Shown: positions 11,763 through 64,000 of the stretch, piece by piece | Position numbering within the stretch: the stretch's first letter is position 1 | Layout of the letters: the number at the start of each line of letters is the position of its first letter | NCBI GenBank assembly: GCA_044892525.1 | Contig: CM097888.1 | Location: 62,868,001-62,932,000, forward strand | DNA from: Schmidtea polychroa | Taxonomy: Eukaryota | Reading direction: 5' to 3' | DNA: 64,000 nt | Notes under the pieces: generated by a model | The model's input: only the letters and a program-made list of their open reading frames with translations | What the model was told of the DNA's origin: nothing | Database searches by the model: none | Program-made: the position numbers and the translations under genes

Positions 11763-25223
<13,461 letters not shown>

Positions 25224-33564: not shown

Positions 33565-34634
33565 NNNNNNNNNNNNNNNNNNNNNNNNNNNNNNNNNNNN
33601 NNNNNNNNNNNNNNNNNNNNNNNNNNNNNNNNNNNNNNNNNNNNNNNNNNNNNNNNNNNNNNNNNNNNNNNNNNNNNNNNNNNNNNNNNNNNNNNNNNNN
33701 NNNNNNNNNNNNNNNNNNNNNNNNNNNNNNNNNNNNNNNNNNNNNNNNNNNNNNNNNNNNNNNNNNNNNNNNNNNTTTGAATGGTTATAATTGATGAAAA
33801 GAATAAAAATTTCCAAACTTGCATCACCGTTAATCAAGTAAATAAAATTTTTGTACAAAAAATTACCTTTCTGTAAATTATTTTAAATATTATTATCTAA
33901 GAATACATTAATGTGAAAAAAATTCACCTTGACCTAATAAATGTTCTTTCTGAAAGTCTGTAGAATTATTTAATACTTCTGGAGCAATGTTTTCTGAATT
34001 TCTAATTGACGCTCGACTAATTTGCCTAATGAAATAAAATNNNNNNNNNNNNNNNNNNNNNNNNNNNNNNNNNNNNNNNNNNNNNNNNNNNNNNNNNNNN
34101 NNNNNNNNNNNNNNNNNNNNNNNNNNNNNNNNNNNNNNNNNNNNNNNNNNNNNNNNNNNNNNNNNNNNNNNNNNNNNNNNNNNNNNNNNNNNNNNNNNNN
34201 GGATATACTAGAATAATTTTATAATATATAATATTTCAAGATATAGTTGAAGTTGCCATCATTGAACTGATGCTAATCAAAAATAAATAGAAAAGATTAC
34301 CAATAAAAATAGATAAGCAAGTTAGAATTGGGAATCCAAAATTATAACTATTTTTAATATGATATACGAATGAAATTTAAAACGTCTATTGGTATTGATA
34401 AAATATTTCAAAAGCAAAAAACAATTTGTCAGTTTTTTACTAATAACTATTTCATAACTTTGAATTTAATTAAAATATTTTGTTTATTAGTTACCGTCAA
34501 GCATAACTTGTAATGGGGTCATGTCAGTCATTATGTCAAAAACTTTTTTTAAACAACAAAGCGTTAATTAAATAATTTTAAAATTATTAACAAATCTTAG
34601 TAATGTACTTGTCAGTAATTTGGGTTCATTAGTC

Positions 34635-38935: not shown

Positions 38936-39715
38936 TTAATACAATAATGAAATTCACATCGAATAACATTTTATTCACATTAAAAGTTATTTTAAAAGTT
39001 ATTTAAACAAACTTTATTTCTGAAATATATAAGTAATTTATTCATAAATAAATTAAATATAATGTATTGCACAGGCACTACATTAGCCCCCGCCCAAGTA
39101 CGGGGAGCGTATGCTGTTGCTGCTGCTGAGTAGTGTGTATATATACCCAACCAACACAACCCTCCCAACAAAAACATACCTCCATTACGCTTAAACCATT
39201 AGAAAAACAACCTAAAACCTATGTTTTTATAGTATTTTAACCCCATATTTTAAACAACAACCACCCTTAATCTTTAAAGCCTCAAACTCAAAAGCTTCAA
39301 ACTAAAAAGAGAATAGAAAAGAAAATGGCATTATGAAAAAGTTAGAGGGCTATTTGGGATAGGGCTATATACACACTACTTTTGATCGCAATCAAACTCC
39401 GGAGTTGATCTTTATCAGATTATTGATTTTAAATTATATAAATTAAAAAATAAATGAAAAATAGTAAAACTGCTCTGAGGGGACAGTGGTATTTTTTTTT
39501 GTTTTTTCACTGTCCCCTCAACAGTTTTTTTGATCCGGATCATTTTTTTATTTATCAACCTCTTTCGTTTATCAAATCTCTTCCAATAGCAGCACACCTT
39601 ATTATTCGCTTCTCGCTCGAATACGATTTCATCGGCGTTTTAAGCGTGCTGCTCGAAAGTACAAATGAATTCGAAAGTGAATTCGAAAGAGGTCCGAAAA
39701 CAACTGAGAAATAAA

Positions 39716-39788
39716 TGTGCACATTATGGAATCGATCCGGGGGTGTTCGAAAGACAGGTGGCGATAATTACCGGTTCGCCACCATCAC
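39716..39788 (-). ncRNA. tRNA-like Pol III cassette T4' (left-TIR mirror of T4)
   Basis: TGGCGAACCGG A-box-like motif, GGATCGATTCC B-box-like motif 43 nt downstream, GTG/CAC+A ends. Confidence 0.5.
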
Positions 39789-39952
39789 CCGTTTCAATAA
39801 TTTTTTTTTCATATTTATGTTTAAAAAATAAAATAAAATAAAATAAATAAAATAAAATAAAAATAAATAAAATATACAACTACTTTATAAATCTAAGATA
39901 CCCAAACTATTATTTTCAAATTTTTAATATTATTTTATGTTGAAAAAAAAAC

Positions 39953-40025
39953 AAACCACAGTTAAGATTTGAACCGCTATCCATTTGAACCACTGTGCCG
40001 GTCTAGCCCACTGCACTATCTGGTT
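39953..40025 (-). ncRNA. tRNA-like Pol III cassette T3' (left-TIR mirror of T3)
   Basis: TAGTGCAGTGG A box, GGTTCAAATCT B box, followed by a T run. Confidence 0.55.
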
Positions 40026-40123
40026 TTGGATTTTTGTCATTTTTTAGACTGTCACATTATGAAAATAAATATAAAAACATAAAAAATCAAAACAGGATAT
40101 CCAATAAAAAATTTTTTCTAAAA

Positions 40124-43100
40124 ATGAATTGTAATATTTGTAATAAAGTTTTTAAAAATAAAACTGGATTAATTTCTCACTTAAAATCGAAAGCTCATTT
40201 ATTAAAAGAAAACAATCTTAATGATACAAATTCAAAAGTTTGTCCTAAATGTAAAGGAAGATTTCTACATTCTGGATATAATAAACATTTTGAAAATTGT
40301 ATCGGGAAAAATAGAGAAATATTTACATGTCCTCATTGTAACTTTTCAACAAAAGTAAATTTCTATTATTTAGAACATATAAAAGAATGTAAAAATAAAA
40401 AACAAAATTCTGACGATGAGGAATGTCATTCAGAAGGAGAACCTGATTATGTTGAAAGAGAAAAATATAACTGGGATGATTTTAATCATGTAGATGAATT
40501 TCAATTAAAAATTAATGGACCTGCAACTCCTGGAGAATATATAAATAAAAATAAAAAAAATATTAAAAATTCTTTCACTGAAGCTTTAAAAAATTATAAA
40601 CCGACAAGGTATAATGTTATAAAATATAAAATTATAATCAAAGCAAAATACTGGCGAGGAGCAGAAGAAAAGACAACACCTTTAGATGTTGAAATTGGAA
40701 TACCCTTTAAATATTTATTTTCAACTAAAGGATTTGATAAAACCATCAAAGAAATAATTCAAGCAGTAGAAGCAAAACAAGAAGAGGTTGAAAATGAATT
40801 AGGAGATTCAAACTTAGTATTCAACTCTTTCCAAACTTTAGTGATTGATTATTGGAGAGGATTACCACCTAATCCTAAATCTTATATTCCTACACCCTTT
40901 AAATCTAAAAATGTTATAAACATACAGAATAATGATAACAAATGTTTCGTCTGGTCAATACTTGCACATTTACACCCTCAAGAATCAAACCCTCAAAGAG
41001 TTTCAAAATACAAACAATATGAAAATGAATTAATATTTCCCAAAGGATTCAAACATCCAATGAAACTAGAAGACATTCCAAAATTTGAAAGTTTAAATAA
41101 TCTTAAAATTAATATTTATGAACGTGTTAAAGGGAAACATGTTAATAGCAGAGAAATTATTCCAATTTATATTTCAGATTATGAAGTTAGAGATAACGAA
41201 CCCCAGGATAACACTAGGGAGATATATCTTTTAATCTTGGAACAACAAAATAATCAACATTATGTTTTAATAAAAAACTTTCAAGCTTTTACATCACCAG
41301 AGAATCCAACTAGTGGAGGAGGAACATGTAAAAGATGTCTTCATTATTCAACAACTAAAAACTCTATGATTAAACATACAAGATTTTGTGAAAAAGATGA
41401 TCCAGCTTTAATTAAAATGCCTAATAATCCCAAGATGTATTTTAAAAACTTTTCAAATTTACTACAAACAGTAGGAGTGCTTTATGGGGACTTTGAATCT
41501 ATAAATCGTAAACAAGATTTGGTTAAACAATATTTAAAAATAATAGAAAAAAATAAACTCATGGATTCCTGGAACTCCTCAGGAGAGAAGATGAAACCAG
41601 AGAGGATGAAAGCCTTTCTAAGAAAAAGGAATAAACCTAATAGTGTTAAAAAAACTAAACAATTACCATCTGCTTATAAATTATTATTTAAAAGTAATTA
41701 TCCTGAACTCATAGAATCTAGAGAATATACATTTCGAGGAATTTCAGAAACAGAAGTCTTGAATCATTTTACTAAAAGTATAAATGATCTAGAACATGAA
41801 ATATTTAAAGTATTAAAAACAAACTATCCTCAAAATATTTCTAATCAACAACAACAAGAATATGAAAACACTTCCAACTGTTGGATGTGTAAACAACCAT
41901 TTGAAGAGTCTCCGAATATAAAATTCCTCGATCATGATCATTTAAAAAAGGAAAATAATTATCGAGGAGCAGCTCATAAAAATTGTAATCTTAATTGTCA
42001 TACTCCTAAATTTGTACCTGTTATATTTCATAATCTTTTTGGTTATGACATACATCTATTTATTAAACATTTAGCAGCAAATGCTAAAAACTCTTTCAAA
42101 GTTATAGGACTTACAAAGGAAAAATATAAATCAGTTGAATATGGAAAATTAAAATTTATAGACTCGTTAAACTTTCTCCAAATGTCTCTAGATGGAATAG
42201 CTAAAACAATGAAACCAGAAGATTTTAAAATCACTCGAGAATTCTTGGAAAAAAATAATATTCCTCTAGAAGAATATTCTACATGCTTAGCAAAAGGAAT
42301 ATATCCTTATGACTATGTTGACTCGTTTGAAAGATATAATGAAACAAGTCTTCCTAGCCAAGAAGATTTCTCTTCACAACTTCAAAAATATCATATTACA
42401 AATCAAGAATATTCTCGAGCAAATAAAATTTGGGAATTATTCAAGTGTAAAACTTTAGGAGAATATACAAGTATGTATTTATCCTTGGATGTTTATATTC
42501 TAGCAGATTGCTTTGAAGAATTTACAAAATCTTTTGTTCTTAAACCTTACAATTATATAACAGCACCCTCTTTAGCTTGGGATACTTTATTATATACCAT
42601 TTGGACTTCAAATATAGAAGAAGCTGATAAAATTATAGATCTTTTAACTAACCTCGATATGTTTAATCTAATTAAAACAAACATTAGAGGAGGAGTCTCT
42701 TCAGTAATGGGGAATAGAGAAATAAAAGCTAGAAATGCAATAACTACTAGCAGAATGCTTTCAAAGACCTCTGATCCATATATAAAAATTAACAATGAGG
42801 AATTAAAAGAAATATTAGAAACAATGAAAAATCCTATATTTATACTTTATATAGATGCAACAGCTTTATATTCAGGAATTATGACTCAATATTTACCAAT
42901 GGGTGATTTCATTGAAATAGAATCATCAAAAGAACTTATAAAAGAAATACTTTCAACACCTAAAGATTCTCCAATAGGTTACTTTGTAGAATGTGACTTA
43001 TTATATCCAGATGATATAAAATCAGGAACAAGATATTTCCCATTAGCTCCTGTAAGAAGAAAGATTGATATCAACGAACTTTCTGAATGGCAAATCTCAC

Positions 43101-44350
43101 AAGATAAACCCCCAACAATGAAACTTCTTTGTGATCAAACAGATCGAAGGTTTTATCTTTGTCACTATAGACTCCTCCAATTTTATCTTTCACGAGGTAT
43201 GATATTAAAAAAAGTTCATAGTGTTATAAGATTTAAACAGAGGCCATTCATGAAAGCTTTTATCGAGGAGAACATTAGATGTCGAAACATTGCAAAAAGA
43301 GAAGGTAACCTTTTTAAAGATAATAATTATAAACTTTTAAACAATTCAGTCTTTGGGAAGACAATGGAGAATGTTGATAAATATACTCATATTGAACTCC
43401 TAACTAAGCCTACATTTAAAAACGCACAAGTATTTTCTGAAAGTCTTACTGCAATAGAACTGAAGAGTTTTGAGAAAACATACAACAAACCAATATTTAT
43501 AGGGTTTTCAATTTTAGAACTTTCAAAATTACAAATGTATGAAACATATTATAACATCTTACAACCTATATATGGTTCTAATATATTAATGCATGCAATG
43601 GATACAGATTCAAATCCTATACTTTCAAATTTAATAAATTCAACTGGAGAATTATTTTCATTTAAAGATGAAAAACCTTTTACTCCTATAGAAAATGGAA
43701 TATTTATTCGTGCTAAACAATATTCATACGAAACATTTAAAAACCCTGAATTTATAACCCGAGAAATTATATTTAAAACCACAGAAAAAGAGGAAATTAT
43801 TTCATTTAAATATCCTATATTCCCTAAAGGACCAGAGGGACAAGAAGAAAAACCTGTAAAGGATAACAGATGTAAAGGAATACAGAAATCCGTTGCAAAG
43901 AATCTTTCTCATCAAGATTATATAGATACATTGAATCCAAATCATAAAGATAAAATTGATGAAATACACCAACTTAAAAGTGAAAACCATGATATTTACT
44001 TGATAGAATCTCAAAAAGTATCATTATCAAATTATGATGATAAGAGATTCATCCTAAGTGATTTAAAGACAACTCTTCCTATAGGAAATAATTTAATACC
44101 GATAATAAAAAATCTAGAAAAGTTGAATAAGTTATATGATACAAAAATTACTGATCTTGATATTTATAATGTTGAAATTATTTATCCCGAGAGAGAAATC
44201 GAGAAGCCTTTATATTCTCAAGTTTTTAATCCTATATGTTTAGAACTTAAATATTTTAATACTGATCCTGAATATATAAAAGGTCTAAGTGATAAAGAAT
44301 TTAAAGATCATAAATTAATGATTCAAAGGTTGGCTTTCAACAATATTTAA
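40124..44350 (+). CDS. polB: Protein-primed family B DNA polymerase with N-terminal Zn fingers (about 1408 aa from ATG 40124)
   Basis: YGDFES (ExoI), DHDH..YRGAAHKNCNL, FHNLFGYD (ExoII), KGIYPYDY, YIDATALYS (A), KLLNNSVFGK (B), DTDS (C), CKGI, DDKRF. Confidence 0.97.
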   Translation: MNCNICNKVFKNKTGLISHLKSKAHLLKENNLNDTNSKVCPKCKGRFLHSGYNKHFENCIGKNREIFTCPHCNFSTKVNFYYLEHIKECKNKKQNSDDEECHSEGEPDYVEREKYNWDDFNHVDEFQLKINGPATPGEYINKNKKNIKNSFTEALKNYKPTRYNVIKYKIIIKAKYWRGAEEKTTPLDVEIGIPFKYLFSTKGFDKTIKEIIQAVEAKQEEVENELGDSNLVFNSFQTLVIDYWRGLPPNPKSYIPTPFKSKNVINIQNNDNKCFVWSILAHLHPQESNPQRVSKYKQYENELIFPKGFKHPMKLEDIPKFESLNNLKINIYERVKGKHVNSREIIPIYISDYEVRDNEPQDNTREIYLLILEQQNNQHYVLIKNFQAFTSPENPTSGGGTCKRCLHYSTTKNSMIKHTRFCEKDDPALIKMPNNPKMYFKNFSNLLQTVGVLYGDFESINRKQDLVKQYLKIIEKNKLMDSWNSSGEKMKPERMKAFLRKRNKPNSVKKTKQLPSAYKLLFKSNYPELIESREYTFRGISETEVLNHFTKSINDLEHEIFKVLKTNYPQNISNQQQQEYENTSNCWMCKQPFEESPNIKFLDHDHLKKENNYRGAAHKNCNLNCHTPKFVPVIFHNLFGYDIHLFIKHLAANAKNSFKVIGLTKEKYKSVEYGKLKFIDSLNFLQMSLDGIAKTMKPEDFKITREFLEKNNIPLEEYSTCLAKGIYPYDYVDSFERYNETSLPSQEDFSSQLQKYHITNQEYSRANKIWELFKCKTLGEYTSMYLSLDVYILADCFEEFTKSFVLKPYNYITAPSLAWDTLLYTIWTSNIEEADKIIDLLTNLDMFNLIKTNIRGGVSSVMGNREIKARNAITTSRMLSKTSDPYIKINNEELKEILETMKNPIFILYIDATALYSGIMTQYLPMGDFIEIESSKELIKEILSTPKDSPIGYFVECDLLYPDDIKSGTRYFPLAPVRRKIDINELSEWQISQDKPPTMKLLCDQTDRRFYLCHYRLLQFYLSRGMILKKVHSVIRFKQRPFMKAFIEENIRCRNIAKREGNLFKDNNYKLLNNSVFGKTMENVDKYTHIELLTKPTFKNAQVFSESLTAIELKSFEKTYNKPIFIGFSILELSKLQMYETYYNILQPIYGSNILMHAMDTDSNPILSNLINSTGELFSFKDEKPFTPIENGIFIRAKQYSYETFKNPEFITREIIFKTTEKEEIISFKYPIFPKGPEGQEEKPVKDNRCKGIQKSVAKNLSHQDYIDTLNPNHKDKIDEIHQLKSENHDIYLIESQKVSLSNYDDKRFILSDLKTTLPIGNNLIPIIKNLEKLNKLYDTKITDLDIYNVEIIYPEREIEKPLYSQVFNPICLELKYFNTDPEYIKGLSDKEFKDHKLMIQRLAFNNI

Positions 44351-44428
44351 TTTTTTAATAATAAAATGTCGACAATTAATTTAAGCAACTATAGCAACCT
44401 GATCTACTTTTTTAAAAATACACCCATT

Positions 44429-45025
44429 TTATAAATAAGAATTCTTTAACCATTTCTCCCGTTTAATTTTTTTAGAATATTCATTAGTTATAACATTAGT
44501 ACTTTTTAATCTATTAATATTATTTTTAATATCTTGTATTATTTGATTTGATTTCATTATTTCATCATCAGTTAAGATTCCATCTTCCAAAGCTTTTAAT
44601 TGAAATAAAAATAATTTAGAGATTCCTAATTCTATTGATAAACAAACTTCACGATATAAACTTTTCTTTTTAGAAGTATAAGATAGTGAAACTATTTCAG
44701 TTAGGAAACCATCAGCTACTGAAATACTTCCAAGTATTACAGGTGCAATTGTTAAAACTGGTAAAGTTATAGGTAAAATAACTGTTAATATTGCAGATGC
44801 AAATCCTAAAGAATAACCTATAACTTTTAAAACTGTATTCCCTTTATTCCATCTATTTTTAATTTTTTTATAATGCTTTAATAAATCTTGTAAATGTAAG
44901 GTTTCTGATTTAAATTCTTTTACTCTCATAATTTCAAGTTCTGTGGGAGCTGAAGGTCCCGAAGGTTTGGGGGAATAATATCTTGATGACAATTCTGGGT
45001 AAATTTTTTCTTTTACTTCTTCCAT
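44429..45025 (-). CDS. Polinton membrane-associated protein with YPEL and PSAP motifs, 198 aa
   Basis: Intact ORF; N-terminal IYPEL and PSAP; hydrophobic stretch VIGYSLGFASAILTVILPITLPVLTIAPVILG; flanking helical regions. Confidence 0.8.
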   Translation of the reverse strand: MEEVKEKIYPELSSRYYSPKPSGPSAPTELEIMRVKEFKSETLHLQDLLKHYKKIKNRWNKGNTVLKVIGYSLGFASAILTVILPITLPVLTIAPVILGSISVADGFLTEIVSLSYTSKKKSLYREVCLSIELGISKLFLFQLKALEDGILTDDEIMKSNQIIQDIKNNINRLKSTNVITNEYSKKIKREKWLKNSYL

Positions 45026-45033
45026 TTTAATAA

Positions 45034-46011
45034 TTAAAAAAATAAGATTTTATTATCTGGTACCAATACTCGGATATCATAAGAGACTCTTGTTGAGAGA
45101 ATGTCTTTATACAATTCCATCAATGCTTTACGAACTTCATCAACATCAACCTTTTTTTCATAAAATATTAAATCTATATATTGTACAAGTGTGCTTTTAA
45201 AAATAATATTCTTACTTTTAACTTTATGTAGTCCATGTGAATGAGTATTAACATACCAATCTCAGTGTGGTAAATCATAACTAGTCATTATAACATCACC
45301 CTTTTCAAGCTTACTATTATAATCACATTTCACAAACCATTTCATTCTTTCACCATCATCATCAAATAAAAAGAAATAAGGATCAATAATCTTTACAACC
45401 ATAAAAACACTCCATTCTTTACTATTTGTTGTTATTAAAGTTGGTTCTATAAAATGTTTATATGTATGGGGTAATAATGTTTTATTCTGTTCTAATTCAG
45501 CAGCTCTTTTTCTAATACTATGTGTGGTGTTAATGTGTGTTCCATGAGACTCTAAATTTGAAATTCTTTTATTAAATGATGTAATCATCTCATTTATTAT
45601 TTTATATATTGTATTAAATTTAGTATTCATAATTTGTTTATCTTTAGAATTTAATATGCTAGTATTTAACTTTACAACTTGTTCAGTTAACAGACTTTGT
45701 AACTTGTCAAATTTATCATTAAATCGTTGTTCGATATTATTAAGCTTTGATTCCATTGAATCCATTTTTGTTGTTAATGAACTTTCAATTCTTGTTGTTG
45801 TTAAATCAGTATAATTTTTATTAGCAGCATCACCTTCATCAATTGGTAAAGATAAATCTTTTATCTTGTGTCCATTTAAATTTAAATCTCCTTTCATTGA
45901 ATCACCTCTTTCATTAATATATTTATTTTCTGTTAAAGTTAATATTTCTTCTGTATTAAACCCTGTTTTTATTGTTCCACCACCTCTATTACAAGGAATA
46001 TAAGAACTCAT
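45034..46011 (-). CDS. Fibre-like protein (249 aa to TGA 45262-45264; frame stays open 75 more codons to TAA 45034-45036)
   Basis: GDSMKGDLNLNGHKIKDLSLPIDEGDAANKNYTD (phage fibre-type repeat) followed by heptad coiled coil; extension checked codon by codon. Confidence 0.65.
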
Positions 46012-46035
46012 TTATTAATAATTTAAAATGAATCT

Positions 46036-46806
46036 TCAAACCTGTTTCAGATGTAAATACATTGAAATCTCTTCTCCATTAAAATCAATCAATTCTCCTT
46101 CTTGGTTAAGAATTTTAAAATTAATATCCATTATATATTTTCTACATAAAGGCAAATAATTTGGAGGATTCATTCTTTCAACTATTTTATATCCCATAGG
46201 AACTGTGTTTGAGGGAAAGGAATATAAAACATTTGTTTGTTTACCATTATTATAAGAACCTGTTATACAATCGCAATGAATATTTATTGTGTTTGTATTT
46301 ATTATTTTTATAATATTTTCTGATGTTATATTCTCAACTATAGGTGTGATATAATGGTTTCGTGTAAATCCTAAAATTGTTCTAAAGAAACTATTATTTT
46401 GAAAATGAATTCCTATATTCTCTAAAGTCATTATACATTTTGAAGTTGGTAAATCCATTTTAATTTTAATGGCTCCATTTGTTTTTTTAGAAAGTATATT
46501 ATTTAAATCTTTTATCTCATAAGCTCCAGGTTCGATTGTTATTATAATCTTATCTGTAGATTTTGGGCTTATATAATAAAATATGTTATTATCTTTAGTT
46601 ATATTAAAAATAGTATTATAAGCACAAAACCATAATAGACCTAATTCATAATTTAAATCTTGATCTAATTTTATTGAATCTTGAAAGTTTATAGTAAAGT
46701 CTGATTCTTTTGAATTTATAGATAAAGTTCTTGAATATTTATCTGACATTATGTTTACCATTTTTTTAAAATTATCTTCCAGAAGGTTGCGAAACTCCAT
46801 TTTCAT
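46036..46806 (-). CDS. Minor capsid protein (penton, single jelly roll)
   Basis: YELGLLWF..YNTIFNI...NN.FYY, IEPGAYEIKDLN, INIHCDCITGSY.NG...VLYSF, YLPL...I...I.NQEG..IDFNGE pattern typical of Polinton pentons. Confidence 0.9.
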   Translation of the reverse strand: MKMEFRNLLEDNFKKMVNIMSDKYSRTLSINSKESDFTINFQDSIKLDQDLNYELGLLWFCAYNTIFNITKDNNIFYYISPKSTDKIIITIEPGAYEIKDLNNILSKKTNGAIKIKMDLPTSKCIMTLENIGIHFQNNSFFRTILGFTRNHYITPIVENITSENIIKIINTNTINIHCDCITGSYNNGKQTNVLYSFPSNTVPMGYKIVERMNPPNYLPLCRKYIMDINFKILNQEGELIDFNGEEISMYLHLKQV

Positions 46807-47296
46807 AATAGAGATTTTAAATCATTATAAATTTCTTGGATTAAGGAAGTGAAACCTTCTCCTTTGGACAGAGTCCCTTGAGATTTATTCAATCTATACA
46901 AAACATATAAGCTTAAAATACCACATATTTTAGTATTATTAGGTTGAACTTGTAAAGAATTAAAAGTATAGTCTCTCTTCGAGCTTACTCCGGACAGATA
47001 GTCTTCAACTTCTTTAGTGGGTTTAATCCCAAAGAATCAAAGTATATAGATTTATTATATATACAAACCCAATGAGATCCTTTTTCATTTGAATTTTGAT
47101 AATTTATAATAATATTCAGGGGACTTCGTTTCTTTTGAGTGTCTTCTTTCAGAATATCTTTCAGACTTGATAATTCATCATTCATTAATATTTTTATTTT
47201 TAAATTTAAATAATTTGCATAATCTTTTAAATCAAAATTTGTTTTTGCATTTATTCCAAATGTTTTTAAAAAATCTAATATTGAAGGACTAGTCAT
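46803..47296 (-). pseudogene. Adenain-type maturation cysteine protease with a 1-bp frameshift near 47030
   Basis: GSHWVC and YFDS in ORF 46985-47296; the shifted frame continues GIKPTKEVEDYL...QVQPNNTKICG to a TGA at 46803-46805 that overlaps the penton ATG. Confidence 0.92.
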
Positions 47297-48145
47297 TTTA
47301 TATATTTATTAAATTTATCTTTTGAAATTATTCCATGTTTTAATAATTCTTTAGAAATCTTTAAAATATCAGAATCTAAATTATTATGACCTGCTTTTTT
47401 AGCTGCTAATAGTTTTCTTAATTCAATAAAAAGGTTGATTGGGTTTGGTTTAACCCTTATACCATCACCTTCTTTAACAACATAACTCTTTTCATTTCTA
47501 TCTAAATATTTCTTTAAATCTTGAATGTGTTTTGCTTTTGAACTAGCTTTTATTGATCTTATAAAATTTAAATATTTTTTAATTTCTTCAACATCATCTG
47601 AAGGATATCCACAAAGTAATCTATAAAAATCATCTGTAAATTCAAAGTCTAAATATTCATTATTATAAACATTTTGTGAATGAATATGTGATTTATTTTC
47701 TGGAGTTGTATATAAAGTAAAGTTTTGTTTATTGATTGTTATTATTGAATATCCTTCAGAATTAATATGAAATGTGGGTTTAATTGAATCACTTAAACCT
47801 TCTCTAATTTTAGGATTAACTTTAAGAGGTTTTGTTTTTAAAAACATTTCTTCTTCTTCCACATTAGAGGTTCTTCTACGTTTTCTTTGATTTCTTTCAG
47901 AATGACTTTCAGGATGATTTTCAGTGGATTCTTTCTCCCACTCCAATTCTTTTATTTTTTGTTTTTTATCTTTTTTTTGCTTGCTCATTTAATCCTTTTA
48001 TAGCTTTAATTGTTGGTCCTTGTTGTTTTTGGATTAGCTCATTTAATATTATAGATTCAGCATGTTGAGTTGTATCTTTTTTATTATACTTGTTTTGTTC
48101 TGATTGTAATTTTTTTAAAAGTGCTAATCTTTCTTCATATACCAT
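47293..48145 (-). pseudogene. Conserved Polinton structural-module protein (PZ-type; label tentative) with a frameshift in an A8 run at 47971-47978
   Basis: A 59-codon ORF from ATG 48145 (MVYEERLALL...QQGPTIKAIKGL) joins ORF 47293-47988 if one A is removed; C-terminal LRKLLAAKKAGHNN..I..ELLKHGII motif. Confidence 0.65.
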
Positions 48146-48167
48146 TTTAATGGTATCAAAAATGGTA

Positions 48168-48701
48168 TCATGGTTCCTTCCAAGGTTTTACATATAATCC
48201 TTTACCATTTTTAGTTTTACAAAGGCATCCATTCTTTAAAGATTTATACATTTTTTTTAAATCATCTTTATCTTTTGAAGATAAAGATTCAGATGTTGAA
48301 ATTTGATTTTTTAAAAAATCATTTAAACCTCTGCCTTTATATGGATCAAGATAGAGACCTTTTCCTTTAGCTTGCCCTACCTTCATTTTCTCGATTTCAG
48401 TTTGTAGTTTTTCTTTTTCTAGGTCTGTCTTTTGAGATTCTTTAGCTTTTTGAACTGTAGTTGCAATTCCTCCAGCTATTCCAGCAGCACCTGATAAACC
48501 AGCAATGATTGCAGGTATTAAAGCAGCTAATGGAAGAATGCCGCCTTCTTTAGTAGAAGAGCCCTTCAGCTTCGCTCTAACTTGTTCTTTTACATGTTTT
48601 CCAATAAAATATTTCTTACCGTCAATTACTACTGATTTATTTTTATTTGATTTTATTAATTCTTGCAAAGATTCTTCAGTAGAGGAACTCTTCGAGGTCA
48701 T
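48168..48701 (-). CDS. Adenovirus pX/mu-like core or membrane-active protein, 177 aa
   Basis: EGGILPLAALIPAIIAGLSGAAGIAGGIA resembles the adenovirus pX C-terminus GGILPLLIPLIAAAIGAVPGIA; repeated G[KR]GL motifs. Confidence 0.8.
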   Translation of the reverse strand: MTSKSSSTEESLQELIKSNKNKSVVIDGKKYFIGKHVKEQVRAKLKGSSTKEGGILPLAALIPAIIAGLSGAAGIAGGIATTVQKAKESQKTDLEKEKLQTEIEKMKVGQAKGKGLYLDPYKGRGLNDFLKNQISTSESLSSKDKDDLKKMYKSLKNGCLCKTKNGKGLYVKPWKEP

Positions 48702-48716
48702 TTTATAATAAATAAA

Positions 48717-49526
48717 ATGGATGTACGAAGTCCAATAATTTGGAAACCAATTTTAAATAGACATAAATCTAAATTTAATAATAAAGTATTTCCTGATAAT
48801 TTTAGATTATTAATTGTTGGATCTTCTGGATGTGGAAAGAATGTACTTGTTTTGAAAATGTTACTTGAAGATGGTTTTTTAGATTATAATAATTTAATCT
48901 TTTACTCTACAACTATAAATCAACCAGAATTACAACTTTTGAAATGTGGATTTGAAAATAAATTAACTAAAAAAGCAATAATTGATATTTTTAAAAATCA
49001 ACATAGATGTCCTGAAGAAGTTTTTCAACCTTGTGATATGGTTGATTGGTATAAGGAAAAGATTTTAGAATCAGATATTAGTAATAAAAATGATTATATT
49101 TGTGAAGATCAGGGGCAGGAGGCAATTCAAGTTTTATTCTCTAATAAACCTGAAGATGTTTTACATTGTGATTTACTTCCTAAAGATAAAAAGATTCTAG
49201 TTATATTTGATGATGTTGTTAATATGAAAAATCAAGAGATTCAAAAGAGTTACTTTACAAGAGGAAGACATAATAATTGTAATGTTATTTATATATCTCA
49301 AACTTATTATGCTTTAGATAAAAACTCTATAAGAAATAATTCTAATTGTTTTATATTTTTTAAATTAGATCGCCGTGATAAGAATATGATTTATAATGAT
49401 TTATTTTCAAATGTTGAACCTGATAAGAATATGTTTGATATGTTTGTTGATAATCATTGGAGAGAAAAATATAATTATATTTATTTGGATAGAGAAGAAG
49501 CTGAAATATGGAAAAGTTTATTTTAG
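48717..49526 (+). CDS. A32/FtsK-HerA-type packaging ATPase
   Basis: Walker A GSSGCGKN (N instead of T/S), Walker B LVIFDD, RGRHNNCNVIYISQ and IRNN motifs. Confidence 0.93.
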   Translation: MDVRSPIIWKPILNRHKSKFNNKVFPDNFRLLIVGSSGCGKNVLVLKMLLEDGFLDYNNLIFYSTTINQPELQLLKCGFENKLTKKAIIDIFKNQHRCPEEVFQPCDMVDWYKEKILESDISNKNDYICEDQGQEAIQVLFSNKPEDVLHCDLLPKDKKILVIFDDVVNMKNQEIQKSYFTRGRHNNCNVIYISQTYYALDKNSIRNNSNCFIFFKLDRRDKNMIYNDLFSNVEPDKNMFDMFVDNHWREKYNYIYLDREEAEIWKSLF

Positions 49527-49537
49527 AGCTTGTCGAC

Positions 49538-50919
49538 TTAGAAATCTGTTTTCTGTAGTTCATTATTATAAAATCTATCTAATATTTTTTCATTATTTAA
49601 ATCAATGATGCTATATGTTATTGGAGTTGTATAATTTATTTTATTTATAATAAAAATTTCATTTGTCCATTTTGCTGTGAATCCTTTTTCAAATTTATTT
49701 TTATATTTAAATATTCTTACTCGGTCACCAATTTTAAACTTTGGTTTTTCATTTACCACTTTAACATTTATAAGTTTAATGCTTTCAGGATTCAAGGAAG
49801 CATTTAAAGGTGTTGATTTTATAGAACTATGTACATCATTATTATATTCATTTACAATCTTTTGTAACAATTCATTGTTCCATTTTTGTTTTCCAATAGC
49901 CGTAAAATATTTCCACATTTTATTTTTTAATGTTCTATTTAATCTTTCAACCACAACTGCTTTTCCTTCGTTTTCTGTTGAATATAATTTAATATCATTT
50001 TCATTTAAAAACTTTGTAAAAACTTTGTTATAAAATTCTGTTCCTTTATCACACCATAAATATTTTGGAATTCTTTGATATTGTTCAAATATATTTTCAA
50101 ATGCTTCTGTAATAGAATATCCTGTTTTATTTTCTAAACATCTTGCAAAGGCAAATCTTGTATATAAATCTATTACAGTTAAAATTATTTTATATTTTTC
50201 AGGGTCTGATGATTTGGTTGGCATAAAGACTAAATCTGCAGACCATGTTTGATCTTTTTCATGTACTTGAACTTTTAAATATTTTTTATTTTTTCTAAAT
50301 TCATGGTGTAATTCGTTGGCATATTTTATTTGTGATTCTGTTGGGGTTAATAAACTAGTCTTGGATATATTCTTGAGGGATCTTTCAGCATCTGCTTGTT
50401 CAATAATCTTTTTATTAGCAACATCTTTTGCCATCCTTGGTAAACTAGCACCTATGAAAATCTTACCTTTCATTGCTAATTTAACTAGAGCTCTTTGAAT
50501 CTTTCCTTGGGTTGATGGATTTTGGATATTATTTAAATCATGTATTAAATTCACATCTGCAACATGTCTATCTCTAAGATCTTCTGAATTGTATGCAATA
50601 TCATGTTTTAAAGCTGCTTGATCAATTCTATTTATTGGTTCTTCTCCTTGTTTGGGATTATTATTTTCATCTAATCTAATATCTAATCTTGTTCCTGGCC
50701 AGTATAATTGTGTTTAAATAAATGTCTTTCACCTGGATATTTTTCTGTAGTAAAAGGTTTTAATATTGAAGATGTCACTTTTGAAGATTGTAGGTCGCCT
50801 CCGGCTCGTGGAATCATGTCGCCTCCTATATGTTTTTTAGTTTTTAGATGACTTGCTTTATGATGTCTTGTAACTTGACAATTGCAACTTTCAAATCTCC
50901 AATATTTATTTAGAGACAT
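49538..50919 (-). pseudogene. PLA2-integrase fusion (about 460 aa) with a 1-bp frameshift near 50699
   Basis: HNYTG|PGTRLD..PINRIDQAALKHDIAY..RHVAD runs without a stop into ELHHEFRK..WSADL..WCDKGTEF..VVERLNRTLK and KFKIGDRVRI..FEKG..WT.EIF..ELQK. Confidence 0.88.
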
Positions 50920-50948
50920 TTTAAAATGTTAAAATATCAGGGATTATA

Positions 50949-52235
50949 TCAAGAATCTCCCCTAACATTTTCAATAATTGAAATCTTTCCACCATATAAT
51001 TTCATTTCTATTTTCTTTTCTTCTAATATTAATGTATATACTTTAGCTTTGAAATTAGAATCCTTTGTTATATGAAGTGTAACATCAACTTTATTTATGG
51101 CTAGGCGATCATCTTGGTCTGAAACATTTATACAAAATATAGAATATAAATTTTTGAAATCTTCTAAACTTAATTGCGGTTCAACTTTGAAATCATAACA
51201 TGTTTCAATATAATTTAGATATGGGAATATGTTTTCATTATTTTCAATATTAAATTCCATTCTATTTATTGGATAATAAGAACTATTTAATTGAATTTGG
51301 ATTGTTTTTAAATTATCAACTCCAATCTTTTGAATAAACAAGTTGTTATTTTTTTGGAAAGATGAATCTACTTCTTTGAATCCAATCAAGATATATCTTG
51401 GTCGGTATGCTAAATTTGCTACCTTTATAGAATATGTTGAACCCTCTGTCATACTAAATTCACTACAGATTCTATTTAAATAATTTACATTTATAGACTT
51501 GTTGGAATTTAATCTTTCAAGGAGTTTGATTTCAGAATGTGGATTTAATGTCCATTCAGGTATATGCAATTCAAGTGTTGATATTTTTAATTTAGCTGTT
51601 GTATCCTTATCTCCATAGAACAATCTTTTATCACCTTCTACTCTATTACAAACTAATTCTATAAAAACATTATGAAGTATACGATTATAGTTTTGAAGGA
51701 ATCCAAACAAGTGTTTTAATTCAAAATAACCTTCAAATTTTTTAGATTTATAAAGTTCAACTCTTTTATAGTAACCATAATTTATATCTAAACCATCTTT
51801 ATCTAAATCTCCTTTATTAACATCAGGAATCCAGCCTGTTAATTCACCATATTCATTTTTATAATCACAACCAGTCAAAATAAAATTTAACATTGTAGAA
51901 TATACTCCCGGATGCAAAACAGTTTCAATTTCTGATGATCCTAGTTTTAATCTCATGTTGGAGAATAAATTTGGAAAGAAATTATTTTCTAGGGTTATAT
52001 CTTTGTTTGCTTCAATTTCTAATTCGATTTTATAATATAATTTGGCATTACAAATATCTATAGGGTTTGATGTTTGAAGAGATTGAAAAACTATATCACC
52101 CCTACGATTTAAGTTTGCAATAGATCCTGAAGTTGGGGAGATTTTAAGTACATCGTTTTTCTTGATTTCATGAGTAAATTCTTTATTATAATCAAGATTT
52201 AATTTATTTTTTTCTTGAATTTTTATAATATTCAT
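50949..52235 (-). CDS. Major capsid protein (double jelly roll), 428 aa
   Basis: LENNFFPNLFSNMRLKLGSSEIE, ELKHLFGF, PRYILIGF, IQIQLNSSYYP, FKNLYSIFCINVS pattern of Polinton MCPs; intact. Confidence 0.9.
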   Translation of the reverse strand: MNIIKIQEKNKLNLDYNKEFTHEIKKNDVLKISPTSGSIANLNRRGDIVFQSLQTSNPIDICNAKLYYKIELEIEANKDITLENNFFPNLFSNMRLKLGSSEIETVLHPGVYSTMLNFILTGCDYKNEYGELTGWIPDVNKGDLDKDGLDINYGYYKRVELYKSKKFEGYFELKHLFGFLQNYNRILHNVFIELVCNRVEGDKRLFYGDKDTTAKLKISTLELHIPEWTLNPHSEIKLLERLNSNKSINVNYLNRICSEFSMTEGSTYSIKVANLAYRPRYILIGFKEVDSSFQKNNNLFIQKIGVDNLKTIQIQLNSSYYPINRMEFNIENNENIFPYLNYIETCYDFKVEPQLSLEDFKNLYSIFCINVSDQDDRLAINKVDVTLHITKDSNFKAKVYTLILEEKKIEMKLYGGKISIIENVRGDS

Positions 52236-52291
52236 TTTTATATATTAAAATTTACACACACAAAATAGGATTAATTAAATATATTATGTAA

Positions 52292-52365
52292 GACATTATA
52301 GCATAGTGGGAATAGGCTTCAATTTTATCACCGGGAGTACCGGGTTCAATTTTCGATTTTGGTCA
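52292..52365 (+). ncRNA. tRNA-like Pol III cassette T1
   Basis: A box TAGCATAGTGG at 52299, degenerate B box GGTTCAATTTT at 52343, GAC/GTC+A ends, T7 after. Confidence 0.55.
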
Positions 52366-52534
52366 ATTTTTTTCGATATTTTTTTTCAACGGAATCTGAT
52401 TCAGCGTACTGATTTTAGTATATATTTAAATTTTCAGATGGATCTGAGTGGTAGTTGTCGAGAAAATGAATAATTAATTATTAATTTCATCAATAAATAG
52501 TCACACATTAACAACTTATTTTATATTGAGTATA

Positions 52535-52607
52535 GCTCTAATAGCTTAGTGGTAATAGCACTCGACTGCATTGCCAATACCAATGGGTTCAAATCCCATT
52601 TCGGTCA
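52535..52607 (+). ncRNA. tRNA-like Pol III cassette T2 (tRNA-Cys-like layout, unpaired anticodon stem)
   Basis: A box TAGCTTAGTGG at 52542, B box GGTTCAAATCC at 52586, perfect T arm ATGGG-TTCAAAT-CCCAT, 73 nt, T8 terminator at 52608-52615. Confidence 0.75.
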
Positions 52608-52778
52608 TTTTTTTTCAAATATTTTTTTAACGAAATATTGATCAGCATACTCGATTTAGTACTTGTACAAATTTTTAAGGAGATTGGTCAACGGCAACTC
52701 TTGGAAATTTAAGATCAAAAACGTTTTAACTTAAGCTACCAAAAATTAATATATCCAATAAAAAAAATATTTATAAAA

Positions 52779-52973
52779 ATGGATGAGTTAAAAGAAAGAA
52801 TGAGAAATGAATTGAATGAAGTTAAACATAAGAGAATGAAAAGAAGAGAAGAAGAACCATTAGAATACATCAAAGAGTTGATGGTAGATAATGAAAAGTA
52901 TCGACATTTTTATATGAAGGCTGTAGATGTTGCTGATATAAGATTGAAGAAAATGAAACAATTACAGGAATGA
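52779..52973 (+). CDS. Small charged helical Polinton protein, 64 aa, unknown function
   Basis: TAAAAATG start; upstream motif shared with polB; stop lies at the inner TIR edge. Confidence 0.6.
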   Translation: MDELKERMRNELNEVKHKRMKRREEEPLEYIKELMVDNEKYRHFYMKAVDVADIRLKKMKQLQE

Positions 52974-52984
52974 CAAAAATCCAA

Positions 52985-53057
52985 ACCTAGATAGCGCAGT
53001 GGGCTAGACCGGCACCGTGGTTCAAATGGATAGCGGTTCAAATCCTAACTGTGGTTA
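52985..53057 (+). ncRNA. tRNA-like Pol III cassette T3 (in right TIR)
   Basis: A box TAGCGCAGTGG at 52992, B box GGTTCAAATCC at 53035, (A)ACC/GGT(T) ends, T8 after. Confidence 0.7.
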
Positions 53058-53202
53058 GTTTTTTTTCAACATAAAATAATATTAAAAATTTGAAAATAAT
53101 AGTGTGGGTATCTTAGATTTATAAAGTAGTTGTATATTTTATTTTATTTTATTAATTATTTTATTTTTAAACATAAATATGAAAAAAAAATTATTGAAAC
53201 GG

Positions 53203-53275
53203 GTGATGGTGGCGAACCGGTAATTATCGCCACCTGTCTTTCGAACACCCCCGGATCGATTCTTTAATGTGCACA
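53203..53275 (+). ncRNA. tRNA-like Pol III cassette T4 (in right TIR)
   Basis: TGGCGAACCGG at 53210, GGATCGATTCT at 53253, 8-bp hairpin GGTGGCGA/TCGCCACC, GTG/CAC+A ends, weak TTTATTT tail. Confidence 0.5.
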
Positions 53276-53997
53276 TTTATTTCTCAGTTGTTTTCGGACC
53301 TCTTTCGGATTCACTTTCGAATTCATTTGTACTTTCGAGCAGCACGCTTAAAACGCCGATGAAATCGTATTCGAGCGAGAAGCGAATAATAAGGTGTGCT
53401 GCTATTGGAAGAGATTTGATAAACGAAAGAGGTTGATAAATAAAAAAATGATCCGGATCAAAAAAACTGTTGAGGGGACAGTGAAAAAACAAAAAAAAAT
53501 ACCACTGTCCCCTCAGAGCAGTTTTACTATTTTTCATTTATTTTTTAATTTATATAATTTAAAATCAATAATCTGATAAAGATCAAATAGCCCTCTAACT
53601 TTTTCATAATGCCATTTTCTTTTCTATTCTCTTTTTAGTTTGAAGCTTTTGAGTTTGAGGCTTTAAAGATTAAGGGTGGTTGTTGTTTAAAATATGGGGT
53701 TAAAATACTATAAAAGTATAGGTTTTATGTTGTTTTTCTAATGGTTTAAGCATAATGGAGGTATGTTTTTGTTGGGAGGGTTGTGATGGTTGGGTATATA
53801 TACACACTACTCTGCTGCTGGTACTGGTGTTGATGGTTCTGGTGCTGATGATGTGGTTGGTGCTGTTCTGTTGGTGTTGTTTCTGTTGGTGCTTGTGCTG
53901 AAGATGGTGCGGATGCTTGAAGAAGGCGCGTGTCGAGCAGTCAGGCATACGCTGGTTGCTGATGTTGCTGTGTGTGCAGTTGGTGATGGTGCTGAAG

Positions 53998-57605: not shown

Positions 57606-59280
57606 TATTCACTTCATAAGTGCAAATGAGCGATGCATAAATACTTATTGATTGATGCCAATGGAGCAGTTAATGGTTAATAGCGAATCACAATTAGTTG
57701 TGGATTTGTGTGCAGTTTGCATTTGTTTAGCGTATCACAGTGACTGAGTAACTGGTTTCATAAGTTATGCGAATTCTATAGATGTCCATTGTTTTAGTAA
57801 AAATTGTTAGTTATTCACAACTTTGAGTTATGATAATTTCTAACTGGTTTAATTAGAAGTATAATTAAGTTTGAAAATAGTCTAGTCATAAAATATAAAT
57901 ATAGTAAATATCTAATTTTTAAAATATTAATTAATTAATTAATACTATTGAAATTATAAAATTTAGTTTTTTTGTAATCAAATGTTATATATAAATAACT
58001 AAATAATTTTGAATTCATTATATAATTTTTAAAGAAAATTATAAATAAATATTCTATTTTAATAAAAATCTTTAGAAAGAAATAAAAAAGAAATGTAAAG
58101 CGAAAAAGAAATATCGAAAAAGACATACTTTTAAACTCTTTAATATTTAAAACATTTCAAATTTTTGAAGCTGCTCACCATTTTTTCTTTTAATTTTAAA
58201 GAGGTATTAACGAGGTTCTCGATATTTTTGGGTAAAAACTAACTCTTTTTCTTGTTTTGTTCATCCGGCACTATAACATAACAATAGGAAAACGGAAAAA
58301 TTCAAATAAAATAGGAAACGATCAATTAAAATAGCAAAAAATAGGAGACCCATCTTTTCTTGAGGCGTTTAAAATAAAAATAAAGGGGATTGAGGAGCAG
58401 AAAAAAGATTAGAAATATCAATGGAATTATTTAAAAAAAATTTATTTGGTAAATTTTAAATACTGAATAATTAGACTGAGGAATTTTGAAAAAGCAAAAA
58501 TGATTTTTGTCAAAGATTCAGAAAGTGGGAAAAATAACCTTTGAAATAGGAATTTCGATTCAAAATTTAATACTGAAAATAAAGAATATTAGGCCAGAGA
58601 TTGAATAGAAAGGATTTTAAAAATATTAAAAATATTTATTTTAAAAATATAAATATTTTTATATTTTTATATCACTTGAAAAAGGCAATGCCGAAAATTC
58701 GTGAGTATCAACAAACATCGATATATTACTGATTTATAGTCTTCAAACTCTCTTTTTAATAAATTTGTTGAGGATACCTAAATAATAATTCATAAAGAAA
58801 TAAACAAAATTACCTGGGGGAAGATCGCCATGACAAACGGGACGATCTATAGAGACTCAGAAAAGAAAACGGAAGTGAAAAGAAATTAAAAAATGAGAAA
58901 GAGAAAGAAAATAAAAGTTATCAAACAAGAAAATAAAAATCAAGGTCAGTACTAATTAATTAGTACAAAAAGGAAAAGGAATTTTGAAATCGGGGAAAAA
59001 GGAAAATAACAATATCCTTATCTCGACAGCTTACCAGTGATAATAGAATTTATGGAGAAGGCGGCCAAACAAGAAAGGAAAAAGGGAAAAACAACTTGAC
59101 AGCTGTCAGAGATAAAAATGGGACAGTCGGGGAAAGGAAAAGGAGAAGGAAAGTGGAAAAACACTTGATTATCTGGAGTGCCACAAGAGAAGCGAACTAT
59201 ATAAGGGAAAACTGGTGAACATGAAATTAGAACAAAAGGGACAACAAAATTAGAAGAAAAATTGGAGACAAAGGGACGCG

Positions 59281-59398
59281 AATTTGAAAACGATTTGGAA
59301 GACGATTTGAGAGACAATTTGAGAGACAATTTGAGAGACGATTTGAGATACGATTTGAGATACGATTTGAGAGACGATTTGAGAGACGATTTGAGAAA
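59281..59398. repeat. 12-bp tandem repeat GACGATTTGAGA (about 9 units) in a retroelement-like remnant
   Basis: Directly visible; plus-strand frame reads DDLR/DNLR/YDLR repeats. Confidence 0.9.
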
Positions 59399-63155: not shown

Positions 63156-64000
63156 ATTGAATTCGAAAATCTTTTCATTTGCATTAAATATATTATTTGC
63201 AGCAAAAATCTTTAATTATCATTTAAATGTTTTAAATTTAATTAATGCTGCTACCAAGAAATCATCACTTTATACTTTAAAAATGAATTCAGAAATAAAT
63301 AACAATTTATCTGAATTCTTTAACTACTAATAGGTGTGTATTGCCAGTTTAAAATTTCACATAAATAAATGCGCACATAGCGTCACAAAGAATTAGTTGG
63401 CGGGACATATAAAATAGTACATTCGTTTGCATTGAATAAACGCATCTATAATGTAAAAATAAAATCAATACGTGTATATTATATTAACATACAAACTTAC
63501 CCGTGTGTTGATCTTTAGCATTGCAATGAATAAACGCACTATAATAAATCATTTATAGACATTTTTAGAAATTTTAAGAAAAAAATGACCGATAAAATTT
63601 TGACGAAAATTCCGAAAACTCAACTTTGAGTTGTATAAATAATATATTTCGTAAGATTTATCTTCAATTTTTAATAAATTTAATATTAGTTTTTTTTAAT
63701 AAAACATGAGAAAATTCGATTAATTAAAAATGTTTATTTATATTTAAAAATATATCTGACTTACATTATATTGAAATAATTCCAAATAACTTCATAAAAT
63801 TTCATAAAAATCCAAAAAAAAATCCTGAAAAATTAATTAAAAATAATTTATAATAAAAAATGTTGATAAAAAGTATCATTTAAGAGCTTGAATAATGATC
63901 TCATATCTATATGGATCAAAATTCAAACCTTAAATTTTACTTTAAATAAAAAAAAATTACTTGAAAGCCATTAAGTTAAAAATAAAAAAAAAATAAAATA

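What the first reader, a model, noticed from the sequence alone, without database searches (positions are those of the whole stretch)
49538..50919. Phospholipase A2 domain fused in frame to the integrase
Seen: correcting one missing base in GGN-CCA gives a single ORF of about 460 aa. It runs from a Cys/His finger-like N-terminus, through a parvovirus-VP1u-type PLA2 (YTGPG loop, DQAALKHDIAY, intact HD), to a DDE integrase (D-x33-E) with no chromodomain. There is no stop between the HD motif and the integrase. Inference: a virion-packaged polyprotein linking endosome escape and delivery of integrase, possibly cut by the adenain (GG sites at IGGD, AGGD).
Basis: partly seen in the sequence, partly recalled or inferred. 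Interest (0 to 1): 0.7.

Follow-up and report, generated by a model that had tools for sequence, protein, structure and literature searches.

The report
Polinton lipase-integrase fusion, gag-pol style
A virus-like jumping element in an animal genome encodes a predicted membrane-breaching phospholipase and its DNA-inserting integrase as one protein, and its relatives likely make the same joined protein by a ribosome slip, as retroviruses do for Gag-Pol, which suggests the phospholipase is how integrase gets into the particle.

Summary
Observation confirmed. The ORF lies in a 14.7-kb Polinton/Maverick. This copy is frameshifted near 50,700, but 15 of 29 sister copies read openly from a zinc finger through a parvovirus-type PLA2 to a D-x33-E integrase without chromodomain. 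Both enzymes are under purifying selection (shared-variant dN/dS 0.10 and 0.08). The fusion is lineage-wide: 25 of the best 150 protein clusters, 32 of 83 related loci. New here: in 10 related loci PLA2 and integrase overlap in the -1 frame, the integrase has no start codon, and an A_AAA_AAC heptamer plus hairpin follows the PLA2 end: a predicted gag-pol-like programmed frameshift. Best reading: a virion precursor in which PLA2 carries integrase into the particle and the element's clan-CE protease cuts the two apart. Packaging, cleavage and slippage are untested. My nine literature searches found neither fusion nor frameshift. The scan noted the same fusion before in this genome (e1-9115377).

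The parts
39129..53811 (.). Polinton/Maverick element, about 14.7 kb, AGTAGT...ACTACT ends, long terminal inverted repeats, 6-bp target duplication (CTGCTG, inside a CTG-rich tract, so weakly diagnostic)
50797..50919 (-). N-terminal propeptide: C2H2 (U1/matrin-like) zinc finger, first Cys substituted in this copy, ending at the conserved GG|D site
   Evidence: zf-U1 hits below cut-off in 3 homologues; G-G-D conservation
50794..50805 (-). AGG|D: predicted protease site that would free the PLA2 N-terminus (IGGD at 50818-50829 is not conserved)
   Evidence: GG|X specificity from PMC6048507
50450..50796 (-). Parvovirus-VP1u-type phospholipase A2 domain: Ca loop (frame broken near 50,700 in this copy), HD-x-x-Y helix 50591-50611, second Asp 50555-50566
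   Evidence: PF08398; residue conservation; dN/dS 0.10
50444..50467 (-). PLA2/integrase junction motif K-x-x-hydrophobic-G-x-G, here G-A-S; predicted protease site, degenerate in this subfamily
50318..50443 (-). Variable linker (0-75 aa in relatives) with the subfamily-specific Met of MAKDV at 50434
49538..50317 (-). Retroviral-like (rve) integrase: ELH start motif, D/D-x33-E core, SH3-like C-terminal domain, no chromodomain
   Evidence: PF00665; Foldseek and VIA matches to retroviral integrases
50949..52235 (-). [quoted passage not shown]
   Evidence: PF21738 E 1e-26
48717..49526 (+). A32/FtsK-like packaging ATPase
   Evidence: PF04665 E 5e-8
48168..48701 (-). Stand-alone pX-like basic core protein with five GG / G-x-G motifs (the part fused to PLA2 in insect PLA2X)
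   Evidence: weak Adeno_PX E 0.043, below cut-off; motifs; homologues in related loci
46803..47296 (-). Adenain-like clan-CE cysteine protease, split into two frames in this copy, one ORF in 19 of 19 sisters
46036..46806 (-). Probable minor capsid (penton) gene; name inferred from position and recall
   Evidence: homologues in related loci; Atlas clusters of viral proteins, no family
40124..44350 (+). Protein-primed B-family DNA polymerase, 1408 aa, open
   Evidence: Atlas clusters with DNA_pol_B_2, score 0.98; Pfam found only zinc fingers

Best explanation
This is the integrase gene of a Polinton (Maverick) family, fused in frame behind a zinc finger and a parvovirus-type phospholipase A2, and its product is likely a virion precursor in which the PLA2 module carries integrase into the particle and the element's own protease would cut the parts apart. 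Shown: one ORF in many copies; both catalytic sets conserved and under purifying selection; glycine motifs on both sides of PLA2; a clan-CE protease, capsid genes and packaging ATPase in the same element; and relatives in which the integrase has no start codon and overlaps PLA2 in the -1 frame behind a slippery heptamer and hairpin. Inferred: (1) the finger plus PLA2 part is what gets packaged; (2) cleavage at GG|D frees PLA2 for membrane breach on entry; (3) cleavage at the junction G-x|G frees integrase to act on the incoming genome; (4) the relatives make surplus PLA2 and a little PLA2-integrase by programmed -1 frameshifting, and this lineage fixed the joined state in frame at 1:1. In the window's own subfamily the junction reads G-A-S, so step 3 is least certain there.
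For: Open ORF in 15 of 29 nearest sisters and in most of 93 matches to a second subfamily (ranking favours intact copies). 33 of 53 PLA2 homologues of fusion length carry both Pfam domains; two Lottia gigantea gene models run from PLA2 into the integrase start. 25 of the best 150 50%-identity representatives are fused. In 39 clade members: His 38, Asp 38, Tyr 38, second Asp 39; integrase D, D, E 39 each; junction K 38, G 37. Variants shared by 3 or more of 46 copies: PLA2 10 non-synonymous vs 26 synonymous (w 0.10), integrase core 5 vs 14 (0.08), linker 11 vs 6 (0.52). GG|X or GX|G at the junction in 27 of 38 clade members and 11 of 15 others; G-A-G or G-L-G in 21 of 26 own-genome copies found by Pfam; the motif is tandemly doubled in some copies and homologues. 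The model has low-confidence gaps at both sites (residues 30-47, 155-164, 180-189; pTM 0.44). Protease family: ASFV pS273R E 0.0013, adenain E 0.004. Frameshift signal in 10 loci: -1 frame, A_AAA_AAC 5-17 nt after the G-x-G, no ATG before the integrase start, hairpin z -2.0 to -4.2, background 0 of 4677 codon positions, integrases only 42-91% identical; K-N footprint in 97 of 113 further stand-alone PLA2 proteins vs 1 of 49 fused. Precedent: mavirus virions hold integrase and a cleaved lipase-like protein (PMC6048507).
Against: No particle, cleavage, enzyme activity or frameshift was observed. The window's subfamily has G-A-S, matching neither GG|X nor GX|G (27 of 29 nearest copies; 2 have G-D-S), and carries an internal Met in a good start context. 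The junction motif also ends stand-alone PLA2 and PLA2X proteins, so it may be a structural cap of the domain. 8 of 26 Pfam-found copies break between residues 156 and 224, more than their share, though each at a different place and HMMER favours short frames. Hairpin covariation does not exceed shuffles (59-83 of 500), and 8 of the 10 frameshift loci are one clade. Six further loci break in A-runs without a hairpin, in mixed frames, and look like indels. The tree is FastTree only and unrooted, so the order frameshift-to-fusion is not shown.
Confidence: 0.6

Rival explanations
1. Uncleaved tether: the fusion stays whole (apart from the finger); PLA2 replaces the usual N-terminal part of the integrase and only tethers it to the particle or to membranes, acting while still attached.
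For: G-A-S junction in the window's subfamily; 11 of 38 clade members did not match GG|X or GX|G by the pattern used; parvovirus PLA2 works while attached to VP1 (PMC4642659); long flexible linker.
Against: The first junction Gly is kept in 37 of 39 homologues and 46 of 46 copies, the second in 32 of 46 while the middle residue varies; motif duplications; some linkers are only 0-3 residues long.
Confidence: 0.2
2. Two products from one ORF: the fusion is incidental, and integrase is made separately from an internal start (MAKDV) on its own or a spliced transcript.
For: Met in 14 of 14 G-A-S copies, context A at -3 and G at +4; L032 has a separate integrase gene with its own Met overlapping the PLA2 stop.
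Against: The Met is absent from the other 31 readable copies; only 14 of 39 homologues have any linker Met, at scattered places; the frame stays open across the junction in dozens of lineages; the 10 frameshift-type loci have no ATG at all.
Confidence: 0.12
3. Intracellular role: the element no longer forms particles; PLA2 helps the integrase complex cross the nuclear envelope or another inner membrane.
For: No particle has been seen for Polintons (10.64898/2026.06.19.733378); thousands of candidate places in this genome fit intracellular spread.
Against: Capsid, ATPase and protease genes are kept; the protease is one ORF in 19 of 19 sisters; lipases accompany capsid modules across related viruses.
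Confidence: 0.08

Closest known systems
PLA2X of Alpha (Mayetiola-class) adintoviruses (Starrett et al. 2021, PMC8502044) and 'CAP' of Sf Mavericks (PMC5803895)
   Same: Parvovirus-VP1u-type PLA2 in a Polinton virion module, with the same K-x-x-hydrophobic-G-x-G ending (L033, L034).
   Different: There PLA2 is joined to a pX-like domain and lies apart from the integrase; here pX is a separate gene and PLA2 is joined to the integrase, which lacks the chromodomain those papers call typical.
Mavirus virophage MV13 and MV02 (Born et al. 2018, PMC6048507)
   Same: Integrase and a lipase-like protein are both in the virion; a clan-CE protease cuts GG|X and GX|G and likely processes the lipase-like protein.
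   Different: Separate genes; MV13 is a predicted alpha/beta hydrolase, not PLA2; no fusion.
Retroviral and LTR-retrotransposon Gag-Pol (recalled)
   Same: Integrase made as the C-terminal part of a structural precursor, by -1 frameshift at a heptamer plus downstream structure or in frame, then released by a viral protease.
   Different: A dsDNA element with jelly-roll capsid; the carrier is a minor PLA2 protein, not the capsid protein; no reverse transcriptase; the protease is a separate gene.
Predicted -1 frameshifts in adintovirus Penton and Hexon-Adenain ORFs (Buck et al. 2024, PMC11071296, section 16)
   Same: Slippery sites proposed in the same virus group.
   Different: Other genes; that section does not mention PLA2 or integrase frameshifting.

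Membership tests
Polinton/Maverick (Polintoviricetes) | Terminal inverted repeats with AGT-type ends and 5-8 bp target duplication, 13-25 kb | tested here: met
   TIR arms 88-99% complementary, 39129-53811, 6-bp duplication in a CTG tract
Polinton/Maverick (Polintoviricetes) | Protein-primed PolB | tested here: met
   1408-aa ORF; Atlas DNA_pol_B_2 clusters 0.98; direct Pfam, PHROGs and PDB sequence searches gave no polymerase hit
Polinton/Maverick (Polintoviricetes) | rve integrase | tested here: met
   PF00665 over cut-off; Foldseek E 6e-14 to foamy virus integrase
Polinton/Maverick (Polintoviricetes) | DJR major capsid, packaging ATPase, cysteine protease | tested here: met
   PF21738, PF04665; protease profile hits pS273R and adenain, Peptidase_C5 in 10 of 26 members
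Adintovirus integrase as described (Starrett 2021; Buck 2024) | C-terminal chromodomain | tested here: not met
   ORF ends 5 residues after the last integrase motif; no Chromo in 25 of 25 clade proteins scanned, while 3 fusions outside the clade pass the cut-off
PLA2X gene class | PLA2 domain with a C-terminal pX-like domain in one ORF | tested here: not met
   PLA2 is followed by integrase; the pX-like ORF is separate at 48168-48701
Parvovirus-type (VP1u) PLA2 | Ca-binding Y-x-G-P-G loop, HD-x-x-Y helix, second Asp | tested here: met
   PF08398 E 2.5e-9 in an open sister; conservation; the loop is frameshifted in the window copy
Parvovirus-type (VP1u) PLA2 | Ca-dependent phospholipase activity | not testable with these tools
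   Only selection (w 0.10) speaks to it
Clan-CE protease substrate | GG|X or GX|G at the domain borders | tested here: inconclusive
   Met upstream (GG|D) and at the junction in most relatives; not met at the junction in the window's subfamily; cleavage untested
Programmed -1 ribosomal frameshift (relatives, not the window copy) | X XXY YYZ heptamer in the zero frame, -1 overlap, no own start codon | tested here: met
   10 of 22 split loci examined; an eleventh (L141) was set aside for lack of a hairpin
Programmed -1 ribosomal frameshift (relatives, not the window copy) | Stimulatory RNA structure 5-9 nt downstream, conserved by covariation | tested here: inconclusive
   z -2.0 to -4.2; 96.9% of cells paired vs 33-68% when slid, 3 pairs with double changes, but shuffles reach this 59-83 times in 500

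The most novel reading that the evidence does not exclude
A broad group of animal Polintons uses a Gag-Pol-like strategy not described for these dsDNA elements: integrase is made only as the tail of a zinc-finger/PLA2 virion protein, by programmed -1 frameshifting in some lineages and by in-frame fusion in others (repeated switches on the tree), is packaged through that carrier and released by the viral protease. Purifying selection on the PLA2 in a family with thousands of genomic copies would then mean that these 'transposons' spread through particles entering cells.
Probability: 0.5. Interest if true: 0.8.

Novelty: new variant of a known kind. Interest (0 to 1): 0.66.

Why it matters
No Polinton particle has been seen, and how an integrase would travel with the incoming genome is open. 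A PLA2-integrase precursor gives a concrete, testable answer, with defined cut sites and, in relatives, a frameshift signal that a simple reporter can test. Selection on an entry enzyme among genomic copies is indirect evidence for a particle stage. Practically, gene callers will miss or truncate the integrase in frameshift-type elements and mis-annotate them as broken.

Tried and rejected
Expression: no RNA holder listed for the stretch; four guessed-RNA runs are contigs only and cannot show starts or a junction-spanning transcript. Single-sequence fold of the PLA2 part failed (pLDDT 40); in the full model rice PLA2 scored only Z 6.4, within the common range; PDB sequence search of the PLA2 part gave only parvovirus capsids at E 0.2. 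Pattern scan of viral contigs for heptamer plus hairpin: 0 of 120 loci encode PLA2 or integrase, so chance matches; a viral-contig scan with a frameshift-type integrase returned only the contig of L031. A frameshift signal in the window's own family: none at the junction; L090 is a plain indel. Split loci L132, L135, L141, L148, L151, L158, L185, L188, L191, L193 and L031 were not counted as programmed frameshifts (stop, A-run indels, breaks inside a domain, or no heptamer). IGGD as a conserved site: rejected. The finger as a retroviral HHCC domain: rejected, it is C-x2-C...H-x5-H and is swapped for a DUF5679 ribbon or lost in relatives. No protease-junction complex model was obtained. The original Polinton description was not held in the library.

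Full report
1. Observation. The minus strand of 49538-50919 holds an ORF in two frames: Met, a Cys/His finger, IGGD, AGGD and HNYTG in one; PGTRL, LKHDIAY, the second PLA2 Asp and the whole integrase in the other, with the break near 50,700. The downstream 391-aa frame matches Phospholip_A2_4 and rve over their cut-offs and no chromodomain. It lies in a Polinton/Maverick at 39129-53811 with long inverted repeats and a 6-bp duplication, a PolB, DJR capsid and ATPase, a pX-like gene (weak) and a clan-CE protease. The genome is 781 Mb with four very large contigs; this fits a planarian such as Schmidtea mediterranea, which is my recall and not a tool result.

2. Sister copies. A DNA search gave 2300 candidates, 40 scored, 30 fetched, one being the window. 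Of the 29 sisters, 15 have one open 458-464 aa ORF and 27 have HD and the first integrase Asp in one frame; breaks are scattered. A second subfamily gave 93 matches, most without stops, though this ranking favours intact copies. Of 30 loci found by the PLA2 profile, 26 belong to the family and 4 do not; 8 of the 26 break between residues 156 and 224, each at a different place, which is more than their share but may reflect HMMER's preference for short frames. So there is no shared stop between PLA2 and integrase. Among 46 distinct open copies, variants shared by three or more copies give dN/dS 0.10 in PLA2 (10 vs 26), 0.08 in the integrase core (5 vs 14) and 0.52 in the linker (11 vs 6); singletons in the integrase core give 1.02, as expected after insertion (multi-hit codons not counted; copies chosen for being open). 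The protease is split in the window but one ORF in 19 of 19 sisters.

3. How common. Searching with the PLA2 part among proteins of 252-804 aa gave 53 hits: 33 with both Pfam domains, 3 with rve only, 1 truncated, 16 Lottia gigantea gene models, two of which read from PLA2 into the integrase start. Of the best 150 50%-identity representatives 25 carry both domains by my own profiles. Of 83 related loci 32 are fused, 24 have separate ORFs and 27 show integrase only, many being short contigs. On a FastTree of 172 integrases the window's protein sits in a 41-row clade (support 99) of 39 fusions and 2 truncated proteins; other fusions lie elsewhere, starred branches forcing at least 8 changes ('unfused' labels rest on gene calls). 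None of 25 clade proteins scanned has a chromodomain; three fusions outside do.

4. Anatomy. In 39 clade members the PLA2 His, Asp, Tyr and second Asp are kept in 38, 38, 38 and 39, the integrase D, D, E in all. Upstream, G-G-D-[IL]-Q is conserved, matching AGGD but not IGGD. PLA2 ends in K-x-x-hydrophobic-G, then G-x or x-G in 27 of 38. In this genome the junction reads G-A-G or G-L-G in 21 of 26 profile-found copies but G-A-S in 27 of the 29 nearest. The linker is 0-75 residues; 14 of 39 have some Met in it; the MAKDV Met is in 14 of 14 G-A-S copies and none of 31 other readable ones among 48. The AlphaFold model (35 sequences, pLDDT 76, pTM 0.44) shows finger, helical PLA2, integrase core and beta C-terminal domain with low-confidence gaps at both glycine sites; fold searches return retroviral integrases.

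5. The frameshift relatives. I examined 22 of the 24 split loci (L033 and L034 left out: PLA2X lies apart on the other strand). Eleven have integrase in the -1 frame with A_AAA_AAC in the PLA2 frame within the overlap; L141 was set aside (no hairpin, sisters in mixed frames). In the other 10 the heptamer is 5-17 nt after the G-x-G, no ATG precedes the integrase start, the PLA2 frame stops 1-14 codons later, and a hairpin follows (z -2.0 to -4.2); the same heptamer occurs at 0 of 4677 other codon positions; the integrases are 42-91% identical. Eight form a clade (99), L160 is near it, L129 lies inside the window's clade. In those eight the stem is 96.9% paired with loop lengths varying, but covariation does not beat shuffles. 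Of 120 proteins listed from 593 relatives of one such PLA2, 113 had the end motif and 97 of these have K-N within 14 residues, always after a residue that can end in A; 14-residue background windows 167 of 1347, fused control 1 of 49 (one family, protein only, DNA not seen).

6. Mechanism. Shown: one ORF, two selected active sites, glycine motifs flanking PLA2, a protease of the right clan, and relatives whose integrase can only be reached from the PLA2 frame. Inferred: a virion precursor in which the PLA2 module carries integrase; cleavage at GG|D and at the junction; surplus PLA2 through frameshifting in some lineages and 1:1 fusion in others. Confidence 0.6; rivals are an uncleaved tether (0.2), a separate internal start (0.12) and an intracellular role (0.08).

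7. Literature. Passages read by term search: PMC8502044 (PLA2X = PLA2 plus pX, integrase with chromodomain; its one held supplement was cut when stored and gave one PLA2X label), PMC3671162, PMC5803895, PMC4061559, PMC4642659 (lipases proposed to be packaged), PMC11161782, PMC8532177 (planarian Polintons are piRNA-silenced), PMC11131425 (no occurrence of the terms), 10.64898/2026.06.19.733378 (41), 10.64898/2026.10.13.758929 (42), 10.1101/2023.08.22.554363 (43), PMC6048507 (GG|X, GX|G; integrase and cleaved MV13 in virions), PMC12567637, PMC11071296 (73, and section 16 in full, 85; slippery sites proposed for Penton and Hexon only). Nine searches showed no report of a PLA2-integrase fusion or frameshift. 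Figures, bioRxiv supplements, Repbase and the original Polinton papers were not seen and could hold such maps. Gag-Pol biology and frameshift rules are recalled.

8. Verdict. Real; a new variant of a known kind; interest 0.66, mostly for the frameshift-or-fusion coupling that makes integrase packaging in Polintons testable.

Noticed in passing
L108/L109 (G000:C1:52596141-52599422; C102), L085, L086: Other PLA2 loci of this genome are not Polinton: L108 has a Parvo_NS1 ORF (E 4e-13) next to a long PLA2-led ORF, i.e. an endogenous parvovirus/densovirus-like element; L085 and L086 look similar but gave no NS1 hit.
   Followed up: partly
window 50420-50467: Loss of the second junction glycine and gain of an internal Met are perfectly linked among copies (14 of 14 vs 0 of 31 readable); one haplotype, so possibly chance.
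   Followed up: partly
L032:7066-8477: A complete-looking Polinton with separate PLA2 and integrase genes overlapping by a few bases, the integrase with its own Met and in the -1 frame: a possible intermediate state.
   Followed up: partly
L125, L130, L135, L141, L148, L151: One clade whose PLA2-integrase junction is an A-run in frames 0, -1 and +1 without a hairpin: assembly error, mutation or transcriptional slippage.
   Followed up: no
window 45262-46011 (-): Fibre-like ORF with phage tail-fibre hits (PHROGs E 1e-7) and an N-terminal GGG motif.
   Followed up: no
window 52713-52973 (+), 47293-47988 (-), 44429-45025 (-), 47966-48187 (-): Further element ORFs without a named family; two have homologues in related loci.
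   Followed up: no
window 8177-9953 vs 27152-29442; 23542-23920 vs 63521-63897; 21594-21790 vs 33526-33722: Near-identical repeats outside the element, probably other transposon copies.
   Followed up: no
window 59267-59420: 12-bp tandem array of about 12 units.
   Followed up: no
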